From IMG/VR virus record IMGVR_UViG_2724679237_000005, positions 1 through 64,000 of that record: a stretch of DNA of 64,000 nt. One strand, given 5' to 3'. Position 1 is the first letter of the stretch; each line of letters starts with the position of its first letter. Shown here piece by piece: positions 57,001-63,000 of this stretch. Position numbers: made by a program. This DNA is from a virus. Its lineage: Duplodnaviria; Heunggongvirae; Uroviricota; Caudoviricetes.

Positions 57001-60000
57001 GATCGATTCGTAATAAGCGGGATAGAACGCCACTGGCTCTATTTTCAATGCGCTGGCGACTTTCATCGCCCGGACGTTAATCTGGTCGTAGAATGGGGTA
57101 GGGTGCGGATAAACCACACTATAGAAGTTGTCTTTTCCACCCGCTGTAATCAGTGTGCTTATGATTTTTGCAAAATCGTTGCGTTGGAACACGCTACCGA
57201 TGTCGGAAGTAAGCAGGATGATGTTGCCTTTGGCATATGTAGAAACCAACTGTTCGAGCGAGAGACGCGGTACAAAGTAGAACTGTTCTCGTGTGTTGGC
57301 CGCCGTCATTAGTTCGCAGATGTCGCGATATCCTTGCTCATTTTTAATTAGAGCGGTAAACGAGTAGTTACGTCCCCGCTCTAATGATTCCATACATCTC
57401 ATAGATTCTTTAGCAAGTTTAGCCCGGTGCTCGTATGTGGGATCATCAACAATGTTTAGTTTCACACCACAAATAACCGCCATGTCGTCACCAGCGGCAC
57501 GTTGTAGTGGAATAACGCTCGCAATATTCATGCTATCTGCTGAAATTACAGCGGTGTAGCCAGCTTCTCTGGCAATCTTCACCGCGTTTTCTGCTTTTAG
57601 AGCCGACTCCCCAAGTGAGAAGTCAGTTCGAACCATCAGTGCCTTCATGTGTTTTTACCTTTCTGGTTTTTTTGATTTTGTCATTGGGGAAGCCTACGAA
57701 CTTCCCATGCATCGAAATCGCAACTTCTTTTGCTGATTGGTGACAATCGGGCTTGTCTGGACACACCAGACAAGCCTTACCAGTTTCAGAAGCAGCGATA
57801 AGAGAGCCGAAACATCCTTTACGCACGATCAACCAAATATTTTTTGAACAACTTCACGAGCCGCTTGTGCAGAAGCTGAAGGGAGTTTGTTAATGAAAGA
57901 ACGCTCAATACCTGTCACAAAGTCGCCTCGCATCATTCCAATCTTGGCCGACAACAAAAGTTCACGAGGGCCAATTGGCTGACTGATAAGGTGTTCTTCG
58001 TATCCATCGCGAACGATACCGGCAAACTTAACCATCTTTTCTGCGTATTCATCCACGATACCGGCATTTATCAACATGTTGATCTCTGCCTCTTTGCTCA
58101 TGTATTTCACATTCGAAACGATGCCAAAACGCGAAAAGTTCGCGGCGTTCTGGATGTTTGTACCCTGGTACAAGCCGGTTTCATCACCAGATCCGTTCGT
58201 GTTGCCAGTGCCAATGAAAGCAAACCGTTCATGCGGAGTAATGCGACGCCATTCTGGAGTCGCCTCTTTGATGACCAACGCTTCACCTTCCAGCACTGGC
58301 TGATACACGCCAAGAATCTGTGGAAACGCAAAGTCGTATTCATCCGCGAGGTAAACCCAGCCATGCTTCATTGCGAGCGCAAGCAAGCCAGGTTCGAAAT
58401 ACGTAGAGCCATCACGCGCCAGAATTTGCCCCGTAACATGTGCCTCTTCCATTGATGCTGTATGTTGGGCACGGATCAACGGACGATTGAGCAAAGCACA
58501 TAGCTGTGTAGGCAATGACGATTTGCCTGTTCCTGCATGACCCCACAAATAGCCAGGTATGCCAAGTTCAAGCATCATGAAAATATCTTTGATCAGTTCG
58601 AAGTCGCCATATACGTAGCCTTTCTTCACTTCGGGAACGAACTCTGGAAACGGCGTATTGACGTTGACGCTAACCATGAGCGGCGTCCCACGTTTTGTTC
58701 CGAGTTCTTCCACCGTTACGTCTAGCAGTTCGTGAGCTGCGACCAGATCTGTCTTGTACTCAACTGTGCCTGTGTAGCCTGGGCTACTGGTCACGCCAGA
58801 TGATTTGGCCATTTCGCTTTTTTGCTCGGCACGTTTAGCTTGAATTGCATCAAGTGCCTTTTTCGATAGCGTTGGCTCATCTGGAAACTGTGTTGTGTAC
58901 ATTTTCAGTACGGTGTCAGGATCGGCATCTTTTACTGACTCAGGAATGCCCTCGCAATTACCATTGGCTACATGGGACTTAAAATAGTGAAATGATTTTC
59001 CGCACCACTTGCAAACAAGGTAATCAGAAGGATTTTTTTCATTTTGCAGTGCAGTAGTCGTCATGCGTTTTTCCTTTGTTTTCTAATGAGCGTTCAACTT
59101 CTTATATAAATATATCATTAACTATCGTAAGTGGTTACTTATCATTAAGGCTGTTTTGTTCACTTTAAAATGATACGAGATAGTTCAGTAACTACAGATG
59201 AACCAAGACTATCAACGCTCGTTACCAGGGCATGATTTGAGTAAAATCTCTCCGGTGCGTCAGTCATGATGCCAATTGCCATCAAATCAATGTCAGTCTG
59301 CGTTTCAATTTGTTTCGCAACCGAACGCAAATGAGCGTCAAAACCTCTCCCAACAGCCCACGGCGCGCCATCACTCAGAACAAGCATGATCTTCCTGTCC
59401 TCCATGCGACCGGAAAATAACGATGCAAGGCTGGCTATGCTTTCACCATCCACGTTATTAAGAAGTGGGAATGTGTAGCCTACGCACCCCATACGTGAGC
59501 GAACTTCGCGAGAATTTACCTTTTCATTCCAATTTTTGATGATAGGTAGCATTAAAGATTCAAAGCGAGAGAACTCATACTTGACAGCCTTAAGTTCTCC
59601 TGCCGCCATATGACTACCAAATGTAGTGAAGCCGGTGATAATGTTGGGAACATTTATTCGATCAAGGGCATCGGCGATGGTATATGCACTTGCAAGAGCC
59701 AATTGTATCGTTATACCACTCATTGAACCTGATAAATCAATCACTTGTTGAACACAGGCGTTAACGGCTTTAGATTCTTCTTTTTTACGAAACACGCGAT
59801 CATCATTCATTGCTAATCTGTAGATACTAGAACCATGAATGCGCCCCCGACGCTGGCCCGGTATAAACTGAACTCTGTTTCTGCTTGCTATTGCTCGCTC
59901 TAGGTCTTTTGCCAGCGTCGACGAAACACCTGACGAAAGATGCTTTTCAATATATTTGTCGAAGAGCTGGTTGCCTTCAGGAACGATGCGATAGCGGCTG

Positions 60001-63000
60001 ATTGGATATCCTCCCAAATCAATATCGGAGAATGTTTTAATAAGCCGTTTGATATGGGCTTCTGCCTGATCAATCGAGCCGATGAAGTCGTATGAGCGAT
60101 TGTATGGCCTGTATTCGCTTTTCGAGCTTTCTGTTAACTCGCTTTTAATCGTTTCGGATAGAGCATCTTCTGTCATGCCTCCGACTTCATCTTCTATGCT
60201 ATCCAGCTCCTCTAAAGCCTCTTCCAGACTCATTTTTGACGGAGTTGGAATATCTGAAGAGCCGTCTTCTGTCGTTTTTCTTTTTTCGTGGTCAGCGGTT
60301 AATGATTCTGACGCCGCGTTATCAGAAGCATCAGAATCTGATACCTCTTCATCATTTTCTGTATCATCGAATATTGTTTCTGATGATTCAGAATTATCTG
60401 AATCATCACTGTCGTTATTATCATGTTTGTGCTTACTGTGTGATTCTGGTTTGATAGATTTGTGATTATCTAACGCTGAGGGTGTCTCATAATCTTCGTT
60501 ATCTTCATTGTTTTCTCCAGAGGCATCCGTCTGGTCAGCGTCTGAAGGATCGGAAGTTTTTCCCGGAGCTGACTCCTTACCTTTGCTTTCACTTTCAGTG
60601 TCTTTGAGGATCTTAGCTATGGTCGCAGCCACCTTTACACAATCCTCGGTGCAAGACATGTTACGCACAGCCACATCGATACCATGTTCTTTTAATAATG
60701 AAATTGGTTTCTCAATGACAGGCCAGTATTCATCCATGAAATCTACGAACGGTGCTTGGCCATCCCAGGCTCTTACAACCGGACAGAGAAAGAAGTTTAG
60801 AAAAAGCGCGCGCTGATCTTTGCCACAATAAGCAATAGCCTCTGAAGCCTTTGGTTTAAAGACTTTTTCGATTATAAGGCGCTGAGTTGCCATCAGATTA
60901 CGTCTTGTTCCGTTAAAGACCTGCCCCATTTTTCGCTCGATGAACACGTCTTCTAAGGCATTCCATAGCGACCAGGAAGGAACGCGTCCTTTTTCTCTCA
61001 TTTTGTTGGACACACGAATATCGGTAAACAAAATGTGAGCAACCTCATGATCGAGAAATCCGCGCACAGCATTCATCAATGCCGGTGTTGCGTTATCCGG
61101 GATTGATGGGATGTTTACGAGAATTGGCTCTCCATCATCGTTATAGCGTACATAAGCGTCGTCCCCTCGTTCTGCAACAGGGATGTTTTTACCTGAAAGG
61201 AGAGCGACAACTCGTTTTACACTGTCACGGAAGTCCTGAACCTCTTTGATGGAACGTTTTTTAGACATGGCTAATCCTTTGTTATGAAAACAAATTATTT
61301 ACTAGTGTGTTTAATGTAGCACTGCGCGAACAGGGAACTAAGCCATTCGCGCAGGGAGAAGAGGGGTTAACAGATTCTGACGGCTAAAGACCCGGAGCCG
61401 GTATTGAGAAGCGTGAAGCGTTTGTTGTTAAGTTCGAATATAAAGCCAGTTGTGTCATTCACACCAACCTGAATCTGCTCATTCGGTAGATCGGTGAGGA
61501 TGTCAGCTACACACTCATCAGCTAATTTCTGTACGTGTCCGATCTCAAGAGCGATTAGGCTGGAAATAGTGGTTTTCATTCAATCAATCCATTCTAACTT
61601 ATACTATGGTAAGGAATACTACTAAAATTTGTATCAATACTGAATACATCTATATCAGATGCAAGTTAATTTTCTTACCTATTTTGGGCTGGTTTTTCTC
61701 CATGCATGGACCTTTGCTCGGTCTTACAAGTGCCTGCCGAAAAAAATGATAATAGCTTTACAACCCTAATCTTTGATGTAATATCGGTAAGCACTTACCA
61801 GAGAGAATTAAACGCGCAAAGGTTGTAATAATGTCTGACAACAAGATTGAATTTATAGAAAGTCGCTATGCTGCTTTTATCGCAGGGCTGATTGAATCCT
61901 CACCTATGAGTCAGGCCCAAATAGCCAGACTTATTGGTTATAAAAATGCCAACAACCTTTCTTTAATTAAAAGTGGCAAAATTCCTTTGCCTATCGATAA
62001 GGTTCGTCCGCTGGCGCTGGCGCTGGGTATTGAGCCAAGTCGTCTTATGATGATGGTGCTGGAAGAACGCCAACCTGAACTCGCAGCATTTTTATACAAA
62101 GAAGGCACCGCTCCTCTTAACGAGGACGAAAAACAGGTTCTTGCTGCATATAACGAGCGATTCGGTAAAGAGAAAGGCGCATCACAAAAGGTTGTTGAGG
62201 CCATAAAGTCTCTATGAAAAATTTACACGAATAAGCTCTGTTGATAGACGATCTCCCTTGAATTTGTGGTCAATTTCGTCTAAATCCGGTTGCTCTACGA
62301 TTGATGCGATGTACGTCGAGAAACTTTCTAAGGCGTCTCGCATCTCGTCCATATAATCGTGCCGGTCGTAGACCCGATCTATCCCCTCAAGACTGTGGTT
62401 CATGATTTTGCGTGATACCTCCTGGCTTATGCCTAATGCTGGGAAGTAACTACGCGCAGTACGGCGCAAATCTCGGGGTGTAAATGGCTCAAGCTCCATC
62501 AGTTCTGGTCGTTCCAGAATACGACGTAATGCCTGGGCTATTGCCACTTTAGACATAGGAAGGTCTTTCCCGATTTTTTTATTCGAAGGCACGAGCCACT
62601 GGCTATCTTTACCGTATTCGAACAACTCTTCAATGCATGTGCGCATTAATGTGCTTAAAGGCAGCGAATGCTCACGTGCTGACTTGTTTCTTTTGCCTTG
62701 ATTCCAAACCCCACGCTTAAGATTGAACTCACTTTTTTTAGCCCGCAGTACTTCGTCAGGTCGTCTTGCTGATACAAGACACAGCCTGGCCGCCCATTTT
62801 GTACCAGCGCACACATTGAAGTAGTCCCATATATTCCAGAACACCCATACCTCTGCGTCGGTCAGCTTCCGCTCGCGAGGTGTGGGCTTTGCGCCACCGG
62901 CAACTTTGTTTAGTGACATATCGTTTAACGGTGACACGTCTATCATTCCCTGGAAGGCGCACCAGCTAAGGAACTGCTTCATCAGAGAGAAAACGCGGCG

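What the first reader, a model, noticed from the sequence alone, without database searches (positions are those of the whole stretch)
57829..61268. CobS/CobT-like AAA+ ATPase and vWA protein pair in a replication gene cluster
A MoxR/CobS-type AAA+ ATPase is followed by a protein with a long acidic Ser/Asp-rich region and a C-terminal vWA/MIDAS domain. Such pairs occur in large phages with unknown function; placement next to the polymerase suggests a chaperone or remodelling role.
Basis: partly seen in the sequence, partly recalled or inferred. Interest (0 to 1): 0.4.

Follow-up and report, generated by a model that had tools for sequence, protein, structure and literature searches.

The report
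Phage CobS/CobT-like motor pair without CobN
An E. coli phage-plasmid carries a known, virus-type copy of the two-protein ATP motor of the vitamin-B12 cobalt chelatase, but neither the phage nor E. coli encodes the enzyme that motor normally drives, so its real target is still unknown.

Summary
Two minus-strand ORFs encode a CobT-like protein (59160-61268, 702 aa) and a CobS-like AAA+ ATPase (57829-59064, 411 aa). On the coding strand cobT comes first. The window is an SSU5-like phage-plasmid, 99% identical to Escherichia phage Cyrano. The same region lies on plasmids in 219 of 5426 complete E. coli genomes.

Both proteins share the architecture of the Brucella CobS/CobT chelatase motor: all ATPase motifs, the pore "shaft", the MIDAS residues, the acidic linker and the N-domain fold family. 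They score far below NCBI's equivalog cut-offs (85 vs 559 bits; 66 vs 759 bits). No CobN is encoded by the phage, and E. coli has only the B12 salvage pathway.

Two features set the viral type apart:
- The CobT N-domain keeps an HExxH...E zinc-peptidase motif (127 of 128 cluster representatives). Three cellular CobTs read DS[MI]AL[RK] there.
- CobS carries an N-terminal Cys2His2 finger.

The order cobT-cobS-dnaE-uvsY-gp32-exo-recA is conserved in 26 of 31 genome loci. However, most DnaE phages lack the pair, and other phages that have it use other polymerases.

Verdict: a known gene pair of unknown function, most likely a CobN-independent remodelling or processing motor expressed with the non-structural, replication-phase genes.

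The parts
59160..61268 (-). cobT-like gene (702 aa): zincin-like N-domain, acidic disordered linker, shaft segment, vWA/MIDAS domain
   Evidence: Pfam CobT_C E 1.3e-82 and CobT E 7.9e-27. PHROG 1576 E 3e-301. PDB CobT 9uka E 1.9e-13. NCBIfam CobT equivalog only 66.4 bits against a cut-off of 759.
60603..61268 (-). CobT N-domain (residues 1-222), M48/minigluzincin-like fold. HExxH (H74-E75-V-A-H78) is encoded at 61035..61049. N103-x-x-E106-D107 and E111 lie on the next helix.
60084..60602 (-). Acidic Ser/Asp/Glu-rich linker (residues 223-395)
   Evidence: 31% D+E, 18% S, 15 K+R in 173 residues. Length varies among relatives, which are 684-790 aa long. No DNA tandem repeat. Brucella CobT has a disordered linker of about 90 residues.
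59763..59882 (-). Segment equivalent to the CobT 'shaft' (residues 463-502, RNRVQFIPGQRRGRIHGSS...)
   Evidence: Aligns with Brucella CobT Q373-R413 (alignment). That segment enters the CobS ring. The GQRRGR motif is conserved in viral relatives.
59166..59795 (-). vWA domain with MIDAS (D511, S513, S515, N605, D633)
   Evidence: Pfam CobT_C residues 492-701. These positions are invariant in alignment A2. They are equivalent to Brucella D422/S424/S426/N518/D546.
57829..59064 (-). cobS-like AAA+ ATPase gene (411 aa)
   Evidence: AAA_5 E 2e-15. PHROG 249 E 3.5e-106. PDB CobS 9ujv E 1.8e-25. NCBIfam CobS equivalog 84.8 bits against a cut-off of 558.55.
58645..59064 (-). Virus-specific N-terminal extension of CobS (residues 1-140). 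The Cys2His2 finger C18-x2-C21-x4-H26-x4-H31 is encoded at 58972..59013.
   Evidence: C18, C21, H26 and H31 are at least 90% conserved in 23 diverse relatives. AF2 shows a hairpin plus a helix at residues 16-33. Brucella CobS (328 aa) has no counterpart of this extension: the alignment begins at query residue 142 = CobS residue 39. The Cys2His2 motif is also absent from P-SSM2 and ICP2-type CobS. No Pfam hit.
57832..58644 (-). AAA+ module of CobS (residues 141-411): Walker A G175-S182 (nt 58519..58542), Walker B D241-E242, sensor-1 N288, Arg finger R312, sensor-2 R367
   Evidence: Residue-by-residue alignment to Brucella CobS, mapped on the motif numbering of the cryo-EM preprint. All five positions are invariant in alignment A1.
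57623..57832 (-). 69-aa Cys-rich ORF between cobS and dnaE. It overlaps the cobS stop by 4 nt and the dnaE start by 26 nt.
   Evidence: Coordinates. PHROG 6337, unknown function, E 2e-45. Annotated in SSU5 as SSU5_051. Found between cobS and dnaE in enterobacterial, Xenorhabdus and Morganella loci.
61367..61830 (-). 70-aa ORF (61367..61579) and the 250-nt region upstream of it. This region is divergent from the HTH repressor gene at 61831..62217 (+) and is the probable start of the transcription unit that contains cobT and cobS.
   Evidence: ORF layout. Cyrano annotates the + strand gene as a putative repressor. The same int / repressor / orf70 / cobT order is seen in L093-L098. The promoter itself is inferred: the consensus scan found nothing above chance.
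53336..57648 (-). Context: dnaE (Pol III alpha) immediately downstream. In this window it is split by an HNH/NUMOD3 endonuclease ORF (54502..55236).
   Evidence: Pfam PHP, DNA_pol3_alpha, finger, HHH_6, HNH_3 and NUMOD3. Cyrano has one uninterrupted 3507-nt dnaE.

Best explanation
The two genes encode a virus-type CobS/CobT machine.

Shown by sequence and by homology to the solved Brucella complex:
- CobS is a ring-forming AAA+ ATPase with every catalytic motif intact.
- CobT is its adaptor. It has an N-domain of the same Pfam family as the Brucella domain that docks on the small subdomain of CobS. It also has a long acidic disordered linker, a segment equivalent to the 'shaft' that enters the ATPase pore, and a vWA domain with a complete MIDAS site.

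Inferred:
- As in the cobaltochelatase, ATP binding and hydrolysis in the CobS ring move CobT. CobT holds a client protein between its N-domain and its MIDAS face.
- In this E. coli phage-plasmid the client cannot be CobN, because neither the phage nor the host encodes it. The motor must therefore act on some other phage or host protein.
- The genes lie at the head of the gene string that runs from the repressor-divergent region into dnaE, and cobS overlaps the next ORF. They are therefore probably made together with the replication and recombination proteins, at the non-structural stage of lytic growth.
- The viral CobT N-domain keeps the HExxH...E zincin signature that the three cellular CobTs examined have lost. 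The action on the client may therefore include zinc-dependent cleavage or metal handling, not only remodelling.

The identity of the client is not known.
For: Architecture equal to the CobST motor:
- PDB CobS E 1.8e-25, aligned to the C-terminus.
- Walker A, Walker B, sensor-1, Arg finger and sensor-2 all present and invariant.
- CobT shaft and MIDAS residues align one to one with Brucella.
- The N-domain is in the same Pfam family and has the topology described for Brucella CobT_N.

Not the chelatase itself:
- NCBIfam equivalog scores are 84.8 vs 558.55 bits and 66.4 vs 759.05 bits.
- PGAP names the proteins 'cobaltochelatase CobT-related protein' and 'AAA family ATPase'.
- No CobN is annotated anywhere in the 108-kb relative Cyrano. 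Its RNR is class Ia, and no B12-dependent enzyme is annotated.
- The largest ORF in the window is an intimin-like adhesin.
- E. coli has only the salvage enzymes and needs heterologous cobN/S/T for de novo synthesis.

Functional constraint:
- The family has 1138 cluster representatives at 50% identity.
- HExxH is kept in 127 of 128.
- An intein sits in the Walker A loop of the Xenorhabdus hominickii homologue.

Context:
- cobS overlaps the 69-aa ORF, and that ORF overlaps dnaE.
- The order cobT-cobS-dnaE-uvsY-gp32-exo-recA is kept in 26 of 31 genome loci at 35-60% protein identity. It is also kept in Pseudomonas and Rhizobium phages.
- The pair lies between gp46/47 and gp45/44 in P-SSM2, and upstream of helicase and PolA in an ICP2-type phage.
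Against: - No experiment exists for any viral CobS/CobT.
- The replication-module synteny is largely one lineage's inheritance. In Roseobacter phage CRP-810 and Gordonia phage Woes the pair lies among small unknown genes, not replication genes.
- Most DnaE phages lack the pair.
- The HExxH motif is lost in Pseudomonas phage phiK7B1, so catalysis by it may be dispensable.
- Early expression is inferred from gene layout only. No promoter or terminator stood out.
Confidence: 0.55

Rival explanations
1. Auxiliary metabolic gene. The pair is a true cobaltochelatase motor that teams up with a host CobN to raise cobalamin synthesis during infection. This is the usual reading in the virome literature.
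For: - Clear homology to CobS and CobT, with conserved shaft and MIDAS residues.
- Proposed for archaeal and bacterial tailed viruses by Liu et al. 2021, PMC8651126.
- Annotated as 'porphyrin biosynthesis' in PHROG 249 and in SSU5.
- It could hold in hosts that do have CobN, such as cyanobacteria and rhizobia.
Against: - E. coli has only salvage enzymes and no CobN.
- No CobN or B12-dependent enzyme is annotated in the complete relative Cyrano.
- Scores are far below the equivalog cut-offs.
- The viral clade has an HExxH motif and a zinc finger that the chelatase lacks.
- The pair is also present in phages of Vibrio cholerae, Klebsiella and Salmonella. From general knowledge, these hosts lack the aerobic CobN route.
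Confidence: 0.08
2. Virion-assembly chaperone and protease. The MoxR-type ATPase and the vWA-metallopeptidase protein help assemble and proteolytically process structural proteins. Iyer et al. 2021 proposed this for group 2.2 jumbo phages, by analogy with the MoxR-vWA system needed for tail development of Acidianus two-tailed virus.
For: - Published proposal, PMC7824862.
- The N-terminal metallopeptidase signature is indeed conserved.
- MoxR-vWA pairs are general assembly chaperones.
Against: - In this element the genes lie in the replication and recombination gene string, overlapping towards dnaE. In the relative Cyrano the head, tail and lysis genes occupy a separate block at 0.1-28 kb.
- In P-SSM2 and the ICP2 type they also lie with replication genes.
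- No structural gene was adjacent in any locus examined.
Confidence: 0.15
3. Metal-insertion chaperone for a phage or host metalloenzyme. This would be analogous to NorQ/NorD, CoxD/E/F or the chelatase itself. Candidate clients are the class Ia RNR beta subunit or the PHP domain of the phage DnaE, with the HExxH site holding the metal.
For: - Characterised CobS relatives and MoxR-vWA pairs include cofactor-insertion systems such as NorQ, alongside remodellers such as the CbbQ rubisco activase (PDB hits to CbbQ and NorQ).
- MIDAS and HExxH are both metal sites.
- The phage encodes NrdAB and a PHP-domain polymerase.
Against: - No metalloenzyme shared by all phages that carry the pair was identified. 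Their polymerases are of three different types.
- Most DnaE phages lack the pair.
- No direct evidence exists.
Confidence: 0.1

Closest known systems
Aerobic cobaltochelatase motor CobS/CobT of Brucella melitensis (CobSTN; PDB 9ujv, 9uka; bioRxiv 10.64898/2026.07.21.739949)
   Same: - The same two-protein architecture.
- An AAA+ ring subunit with identical catalytic motif positions.
- An adaptor with a PF06213 N-domain (M48C-like fold), an acidic disordered linker, a pore-inserting shaft and a vWA domain with D-x-S-x-S...N...D MIDAS.
   Different: - About 30% identity or less, and far below the equivalog cut-offs.
- No CobN partner in phage or host.
- The viral CobT N-domain keeps HExxH, where cellular CobT reads DS[MI]AL[RK].
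- Viral CobS has a 140-residue N-extension with a Cys2His2 finger and no CobS_N Pfam domain.
- The helix-2 insert is 4 residues shorter, and the shaft-contacting residue R147 is Phe here (alignment).
- Gene order is cobT then cobS, whereas it is cobS then cobT in the Rhizobiales loci.
MoxR AAA+ / vWA-metallopeptidase pair of T4-like (group 2.2) jumbo phages and cyanomyoviruses (Iyer et al. 2021; cyanophage 'cobS' plus 'peptidase', T4-GC 146/150)
   Same: - The same family in the broad sense.
- The P-SSM2 'peptidase' aligns with the window CobT, including HExxH and DxSxS.
- Its cobS aligns over the AAA+ module.
- It lies among replication genes.
   Different: - Only 19-30% identity.
- Cyanophage and ICP2-type CobS lack the Cys2His2 finger.
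- The genes are separated by three small ORFs in P-SSM2.
- The published functional proposal (virion assembly) does not fit the placement seen here.
Mg-chelatase ChlI/ChlD (BchI/BchD)
   Same: An AAA+ motor plus an adaptor with an acidic linker and a C-terminal MIDAS-vWA domain, driving a large catalytic subunit. This rests on established knowledge and on the discussion.
   Different: The ChlD N-domain is a degenerate AAA+ module, not a zincin-like domain. ChlI and ChlD did not appear among the sequence hits.
Other MoxR-type AAA+ / vWA remodellers: CbbQ/CbbO, NorQ/NorD, RavA/ViaA, Midasin (Rea1)
   Same: An AAA_5-type ATPase working with a MIDAS domain on a dedicated client. Weaker PDB sequence hits were found to Midasin, CbbQ and NorQ.
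   Different: These are much more distant (E 1e-11 to 1e-3). None of their partners has the CobT N-domain or shaft.
FtsH-type AAA+ zinc metalloproteases (functional analogy only)
   Same: An AAA+ ring coupled to an HExxH zincin module.
   Different: No homology of the protease part was shown. Here the two activities are on separate proteins, and proteolysis is not demonstrated.

Membership tests
Cobaltochelatase subunit CobS (NCBIfam TIGR01650, equivalog) | Whole-protein score above the curated equivalog cut-off | tested here: not met
   84.8 bits against a cut-off of 558.55. Only residues 141-411 match.
Cobaltochelatase subunit CobS (NCBIfam TIGR01650, equivalog) | Complete AAA+ catalytic set: Walker A, Walker B, sensor-1, Arg finger, sensor-2 | tested here: met
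   GHAGTGKS 175-182, D241-E242, N288, R312, R367. These align with Brucella G71-S78, D141-E142, N186, R210, R271 and are invariant in 23 relatives.
Cobaltochelatase subunit CobS (NCBIfam TIGR01650, equivalog) | Works with a CobN subunit encoded by the same organism | tested here: not met
   No CobN in the window (largest ORFs). None is annotated in the complete relative Cyrano. E. coli has only CobU/S/T/C salvage enzymes.
Cobaltochelatase subunit CobS (NCBIfam TIGR01650, equivalog) | About 330 aa with the short CobS_N (PF12556) N-terminus | tested here: not met
   411 aa, and only AAA_5 is detected. Cellular CobS proteins of 328-331 aa carry PF12556. Here the N-terminus is a 140-residue extension with a Cys2His2 finger.
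Cobaltochelatase subunit CobT (NCBIfam TIGR01651, equivalog) | Whole-protein score above the curated equivalog cut-off | tested here: not met
   66.4 bits against a cut-off of 759.05. The match covers only residues 295-697.
Cobaltochelatase subunit CobT (NCBIfam TIGR01651, equivalog) | Domain order: PF06213 N-domain, acidic disordered linker, shaft, PF11775 vWA with MIDAS | tested here: met
   Pfam CobT residues 9-294 and CobT_C residues 492-701. Linker composition. Shaft residues 463-502 align with Brucella Q373-R413, and MIDAS D511/S513/S515/N605/D633 are present.
Cobaltochelatase subunit CobT (NCBIfam TIGR01651, equivalog) | Cobalt insertion into hydrogenobyrinic acid a,c-diamide together with CobN and CobS | not testable with these tools
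   Needs an enzyme assay.
Viral CobS / CobT-related families (PHROG 249 and PHROG 1576) | Full-length match to the phage family profiles | tested here: met
   phrog_249 E 3.5e-106 over residues 11-410. phrog_1576 E 3.3e-301 over residues 5-702.
MoxR-type AAA+ / vWA two-gene systems | An AAA_5-type ATPase gene adjacent to a gene for a MIDAS-containing vWA protein | tested here: met
   The genes are 95 nt apart on the same strand. Domains as.
Gluzincin / M48-like zinc metallopeptidases | HExxH on a helix that follows a beta-sheet, with a further Glu on the next helix | tested here: met
   H74-E75-x-x-H78 lie in helix 62-81, after strands 31-53. E106 and E111 lie in helix 98-117. The motif is kept in 127 of 128 representatives.
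Gluzincin / M48-like zinc metallopeptidases | Significant structural similarity to solved members | tested here: inconclusive
Gluzincin / M48-like zinc metallopeptidases | Zinc binding and peptidase activity | not testable with these tools
   Needs metal analysis and protease assays. The motif is lost in phiK7B1.
Anti-phage defence systems (PADLOC) | Match to a defence-system protein model | tested here: not met
   No hit for CobS. The only hit for CobT is a marginal one to DrmE, E 0.0014.

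The most novel reading that the evidence does not exclude
Viral CobS/CobT is an ATP-driven, MIDAS-targeted zinc protease, a two-component counterpart of FtsH. It cleaves or strips a specific host or phage protein at the onset of lytic DNA replication. On this reading the cellular cobaltochelatase motor is a derivative of such a machine that lost the catalytic histidines and kept the N-domain only as a docking module for CobS and CobN.
Probability: 0.15. Interest if true: 0.75.

Novelty: already known. Interest (0 to 1): 0.38.

Why it matters
cobS is a core gene of marine T4-like cyanophages, and the pair occurs in many other tailed viruses of bacteria and archaea. Here it is found in about 4% of complete E. 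coli genomes, always on phage-plasmids. In virome studies these genes are routinely counted as cobalamin 'auxiliary metabolic genes'.

This window shows the pair in a host with no CobN and no de novo B12 pathway, and with a conserved peptidase signature that the three cellular CobTs examined lack. That argues the routine reading is at least not general.

Close relatives infect E. coli K-12, so the open question of what viral CobS/CobT acts on could be answered with ordinary phage genetics and trap mutants.

Tried and rejected
- Scans of viral contigs with the CobS protein and with alignment A1 returned only near-identical SSU5-like loci among the 80 kept, so they added no distant contexts.
- phmmer and a profile of viral CobT N-domains against PDB sequences did not find the solved CobT N-domain. 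Homology was shown through Pfam PF06213 and hhalign instead. A weak profile hit to AcrIIA26 (E 0.0026) was treated as a short-motif coincidence.
- Foldseek against the PDB gave nothing significant. The afdb50 library was unavailable.
- An Rfam scan of 54000-62000 found no RNA family, so there was no support for a group I intron around the HNH ORF.
- The promoter and terminator scan gave fewer sites than the shuffles, so no operon boundaries could be set from it.
- No tandem repeats were found in the linker-coding DNA.
- PADLOC found no defence-system membership.
- The idea that the pair is a dedicated accessory of the DnaE polymerase was rejected. DnaE occurs in 1162 phage records, most of them without the pair, and phages with the pair use three polymerase types.
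- The Cyrano annotations 'cobalamin synthetase' and 'dimethylbenzimidazole phosphoribosyltransferase' were rejected as a name confusion with the unrelated Salmonella CobS and CobT.

Full report
**What is in the sequence.** The interval holds two minus-strand ORFs at exactly the stated coordinates.
- ORF 59160..61268 (702 aa) matches Pfam CobT_C, the vWA domain of CobT (E 1.3e-82, residues 492-701). It also matches the Pfam CobT N-domain (E 7.9e-27).
- ORF 57829..59064 (411 aa) matches AAA_5 (E 2e-15).
- Against PDB sequences the best hits are the cobaltochelatase subunits themselves: CobS 9ujv (E 1.8e-25) and CobT 9uka (E 1.9e-13).
- Residues 223-395 of the vWA protein are 31% Asp+Glu and 18% Ser. 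The DNA there has no tandem repeat.

In the direction of transcription cobT comes first. cobS follows after 95 nt, then a 69-aa Cys-rich ORF that overlaps the cobS stop by 4 nt, and then dnaE, whose start overlaps that ORF by 26 nt.

**What the element is.** The region is 99.1% identical to Escherichia phage Cyrano and about 75% identical to Salmonella phage SSU5. The same 3.4 kb occurs in 219 of 5426 complete E. coli genomes, always on plasmids of about 108-120 kb and never on a chromosome. The window is therefore part of an SSU5-type phage-plasmid. PGAP names the two products 'cobaltochelatase CobT-related protein' and 'AAA family ATPase'. SSU5 and PHROG 249 call them 'porphyrin biosynthesis'. 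Cyrano's labels 'cobalamin synthetase' and 'dimethylbenzimidazole phosphoribosyltransferase' confuse them with the unrelated Salmonella-nomenclature CobS and CobT of the salvage pathway.

**Comparison with the solved chelatase motor.** A July 2026 preprint (bioRxiv 10.64898/2026.07.21.739949) describes Brucella CobSTN.
- A CobS hexamer forms the motor ring.
- The CobT N-domain has a peptidase M48C-like fold. It docks on the CobS small subdomain and touches CobN.
- The linker is disordered and about 90 residues long.
- A 'shaft' (Q373-R413) enters the CobS pore.
- The vWA MIDAS site (D422, S424, S426, N518, D546) faces CobN.

Mapping the and alignments onto that numbering gives these equivalents in the window proteins:
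- Walker A G175-S182, Walker B D241-E242, sensor-1 N288, Arg finger R312 and sensor-2 R367. All are invariant in 23 diverse relatives.
- A shaft equivalent at residues 463-502, with a conserved GQRRGR motif.
- MIDAS D511, S513, S515, N605 and D633.

The CobT N-domain modelled with high confidence (pLDDT 91, pTM 0.87). It shows one helix, a three-stranded sheet and then a helical bundle, which is the topology reported for Brucella CobT_N. The viral N-domain and a Brucella-type N-domain hit the same positions of Pfam PF06213 (E 1.1e-21 and 6.8e-81). They align by hhalign with 70% probability and E 4e-5. At the level of architecture this is a CobS/CobT motor.

**Why it is not simply the chelatase.** Against NCBI's equivalog models the proteins score 84.8 bits (cut-off 558.55) and 66.4 bits (cut-off 759.05). 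Nothing in the window resembles CobN; the only ORF of that size is an intimin-like adhesin. The complete annotation of Cyrano has no CobN and no B12-dependent enzyme, and its ribonucleotide reductase is class Ia NrdAB. E. coli has only the salvage enzymes and needs heterologous cobN, cobS and cobT for de novo synthesis (PMC6249242). The published idea that viral CobST hijacks host CobN (PMC8651126) therefore cannot apply in this host.

**Features specific to the viral type.**
- *HExxH motif.* The CobT N-domain carries D73-H74-E75-x-x-H78 on the helix that follows the sheet. N103-x-x-E106-D107 and E111 lie on the next helix. This is the layout of a gluzincin active site.
- *How conserved it is.* An exhaustive search found 1138 cluster representatives of this domain. 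Among the 127 full-length representatives in the top 150 plus the window protein, 127 of 128 keep HExxH, and D73, E106 and E111 are invariant.
- *Cellular CobT lacks it.* Three cellular CobT genes, each downstream of a genuine cobS in Rhizobiales-type genomes, read DS[MI]AL[RK] at that position.
- *Prior literature and an exception.* The peptidase domain was already noted for T4-like jumbo phages by Iyer et al. 2021 (PMC7824862). Pseudomonas phage phiK7B1 has lost both histidines.
- *Zinc finger on CobS.* CobS has a 140-residue N-extension with C18-x2-C21-x4-H26-x4-H31. The finger is at least 90% conserved in the clade and is modelled as a hairpin plus a helix. Brucella CobS has no counterpart of this extension, and the motif is absent from cyanophage and ICP2-type CobS.

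**Genomic context.** A scan of one genome per species found 31 loci. In 26 of them cobS is followed by dnaE, usually within the full string cobT-cobS-dnaE-uvsY-gp32-exonuclease-recA. These come from Alpha-, Beta- and Gammaproteobacteria, often on contigs of 96-119 kb, at 35-60% protein identity. The same order holds in Pseudomonas phage phiK7B1 and Rhizobium phage RHph_N1_10.
- In the enterobacterial loci, and in Xenorhabdus and Morganella, the string starts next to a divergently transcribed repressor and an integrase.
- In an ICP2-type vibriophage the pair lies upstream of helicase and PolA.
- In P-SSM2 the 'peptidase' (cobT) and cobS lie between gp46/47 and gp45/44.
- In Roseobacter phage CRP-810 and Gordonia phage Woes they lie among small unknown genes.
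- A related DnaE occurs in 1162 phage records. Only 494 records have any CobS relative, and most of those are cyanophages with a T4-type polymerase.

The pair is therefore a stable member of non-structural, replication-phase gene sets in several lineages. It is not a dedicated accessory of one polymerase.

**Most likely mechanism.** The conserved parts are shown. By homology, a CobS ring grips the CobT shaft, and nucleotide-driven changes in the ring move CobT. CobT holds a client between its N-domain and its MIDAS face. Three further points are inferred:
- The client here is not CobN.
- The proteins are made together with the replication proteins.
- The retained zincin site may cleave the client or handle a metal.

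I put 0.55 on 'CobN-independent remodelling or processing motor of the early or replication phase'. The rivals are virion assembly and processing (0.15), a metal-insertion chaperone for a phage metalloenzyme (0.10) and the cobalamin reading (0.08). No experiment bears on any of these.

**Novelty and interest.** The genes, their family and even the peptidase domain are already in databases and in the literature, so the finding is filed as already known. Three points add modest interest:
- The contrast between viral HExxH and the degenerate cellular CobT site.
- The clear failure of the cobalamin reading in this host.
- The availability of a tractable E. coli system for an open question that also concerns core genes of marine cyanophages.

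**Seen in passing.**
- An intein in the Walker A loop of the Xenorhabdus hominickii cobS homologue.
- An HNH endonuclease ORF splitting dnaE in this window, present in only 7 of 112 related loci.
- An intimin-like adhesin carried as cargo.

Noticed in passing
L102 8400-10700 (Xenorhabdus hominickii NZ_NJAI01000009.1): The cobS homologue carries an in-frame insert of about 375 residues inside the Walker A loop (GHAGTGK | insert | TSL...). The insert contains a LAGLIDADG-like block (LLCGLMDTDGTS) and ends in ...VTHN, so it looks like an intein with a homing endonuclease. Inteins usually sit in conserved sites of important genes.
   Followed up: partly
window 53336-57648 (-): The phage dnaE is split into a 787-aa N part and a 389-aa C part (HhH plus a UDG-like region) by a 244-aa HNH/NUMOD3 endonuclease ORF (54502..55236). 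The ORF is inserted just upstream of the conserved YAFNKSHS motif. Cyrano has one uninterrupted gene, and only 7 of 112 related loci carry the HNH ORF. No group I intron model matched, so it is unclear whether this is an intron or a free-standing endonuclease that leaves a two-piece polymerase.
   Followed up: partly
window 18258-21893 (-): A 1211-aa ORF matches inverse autotransporter adhesins (IatC E 6e-174; intimin E 5e-120). It appears to be a virulence-type cargo gene on the phage-plasmid.
   Followed up: no
window 57623-57832 (-): A 69-aa Cys-rich ORF (PHROG 6337, unknown function) overlaps both the end of cobS and the start of dnaE. It is conserved at this position in enterobacterial, Xenorhabdus and Morganella relatives and could be a third component of either system.
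   Followed up: partly
window 52661-53336, compared with L001 6565-8543 (Cyrano): Cyrano has a hicA/hicB toxin-antitoxin pair between the uvsY-like gene and dnaE. This window has only about 100 nt there, so this spot is a variable cargo site.
   Followed up: no
L124 3300-4100, L125 1450-2600, L126 1950-2700: All three cellular cobT genes fetched from Rhizobiales-type assemblies are broken by a frame change within the N-domain or at the N-domain/linker junction. That is why they are stored as truncated proteins. Assembly errors are the likely cause, but this was not examined.
   Followed up: no
window 60948-61000 (CobT residues about 96-115): The profile of viral CobT N-domains gave a weak hit (E 0.0026) to the anti-CRISPR AcrIIA26 (PDB 9zq6_B) over the N-x-V-E-D-x-F-I-E segment. 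This is probably a short-motif coincidence.
   Followed up: no
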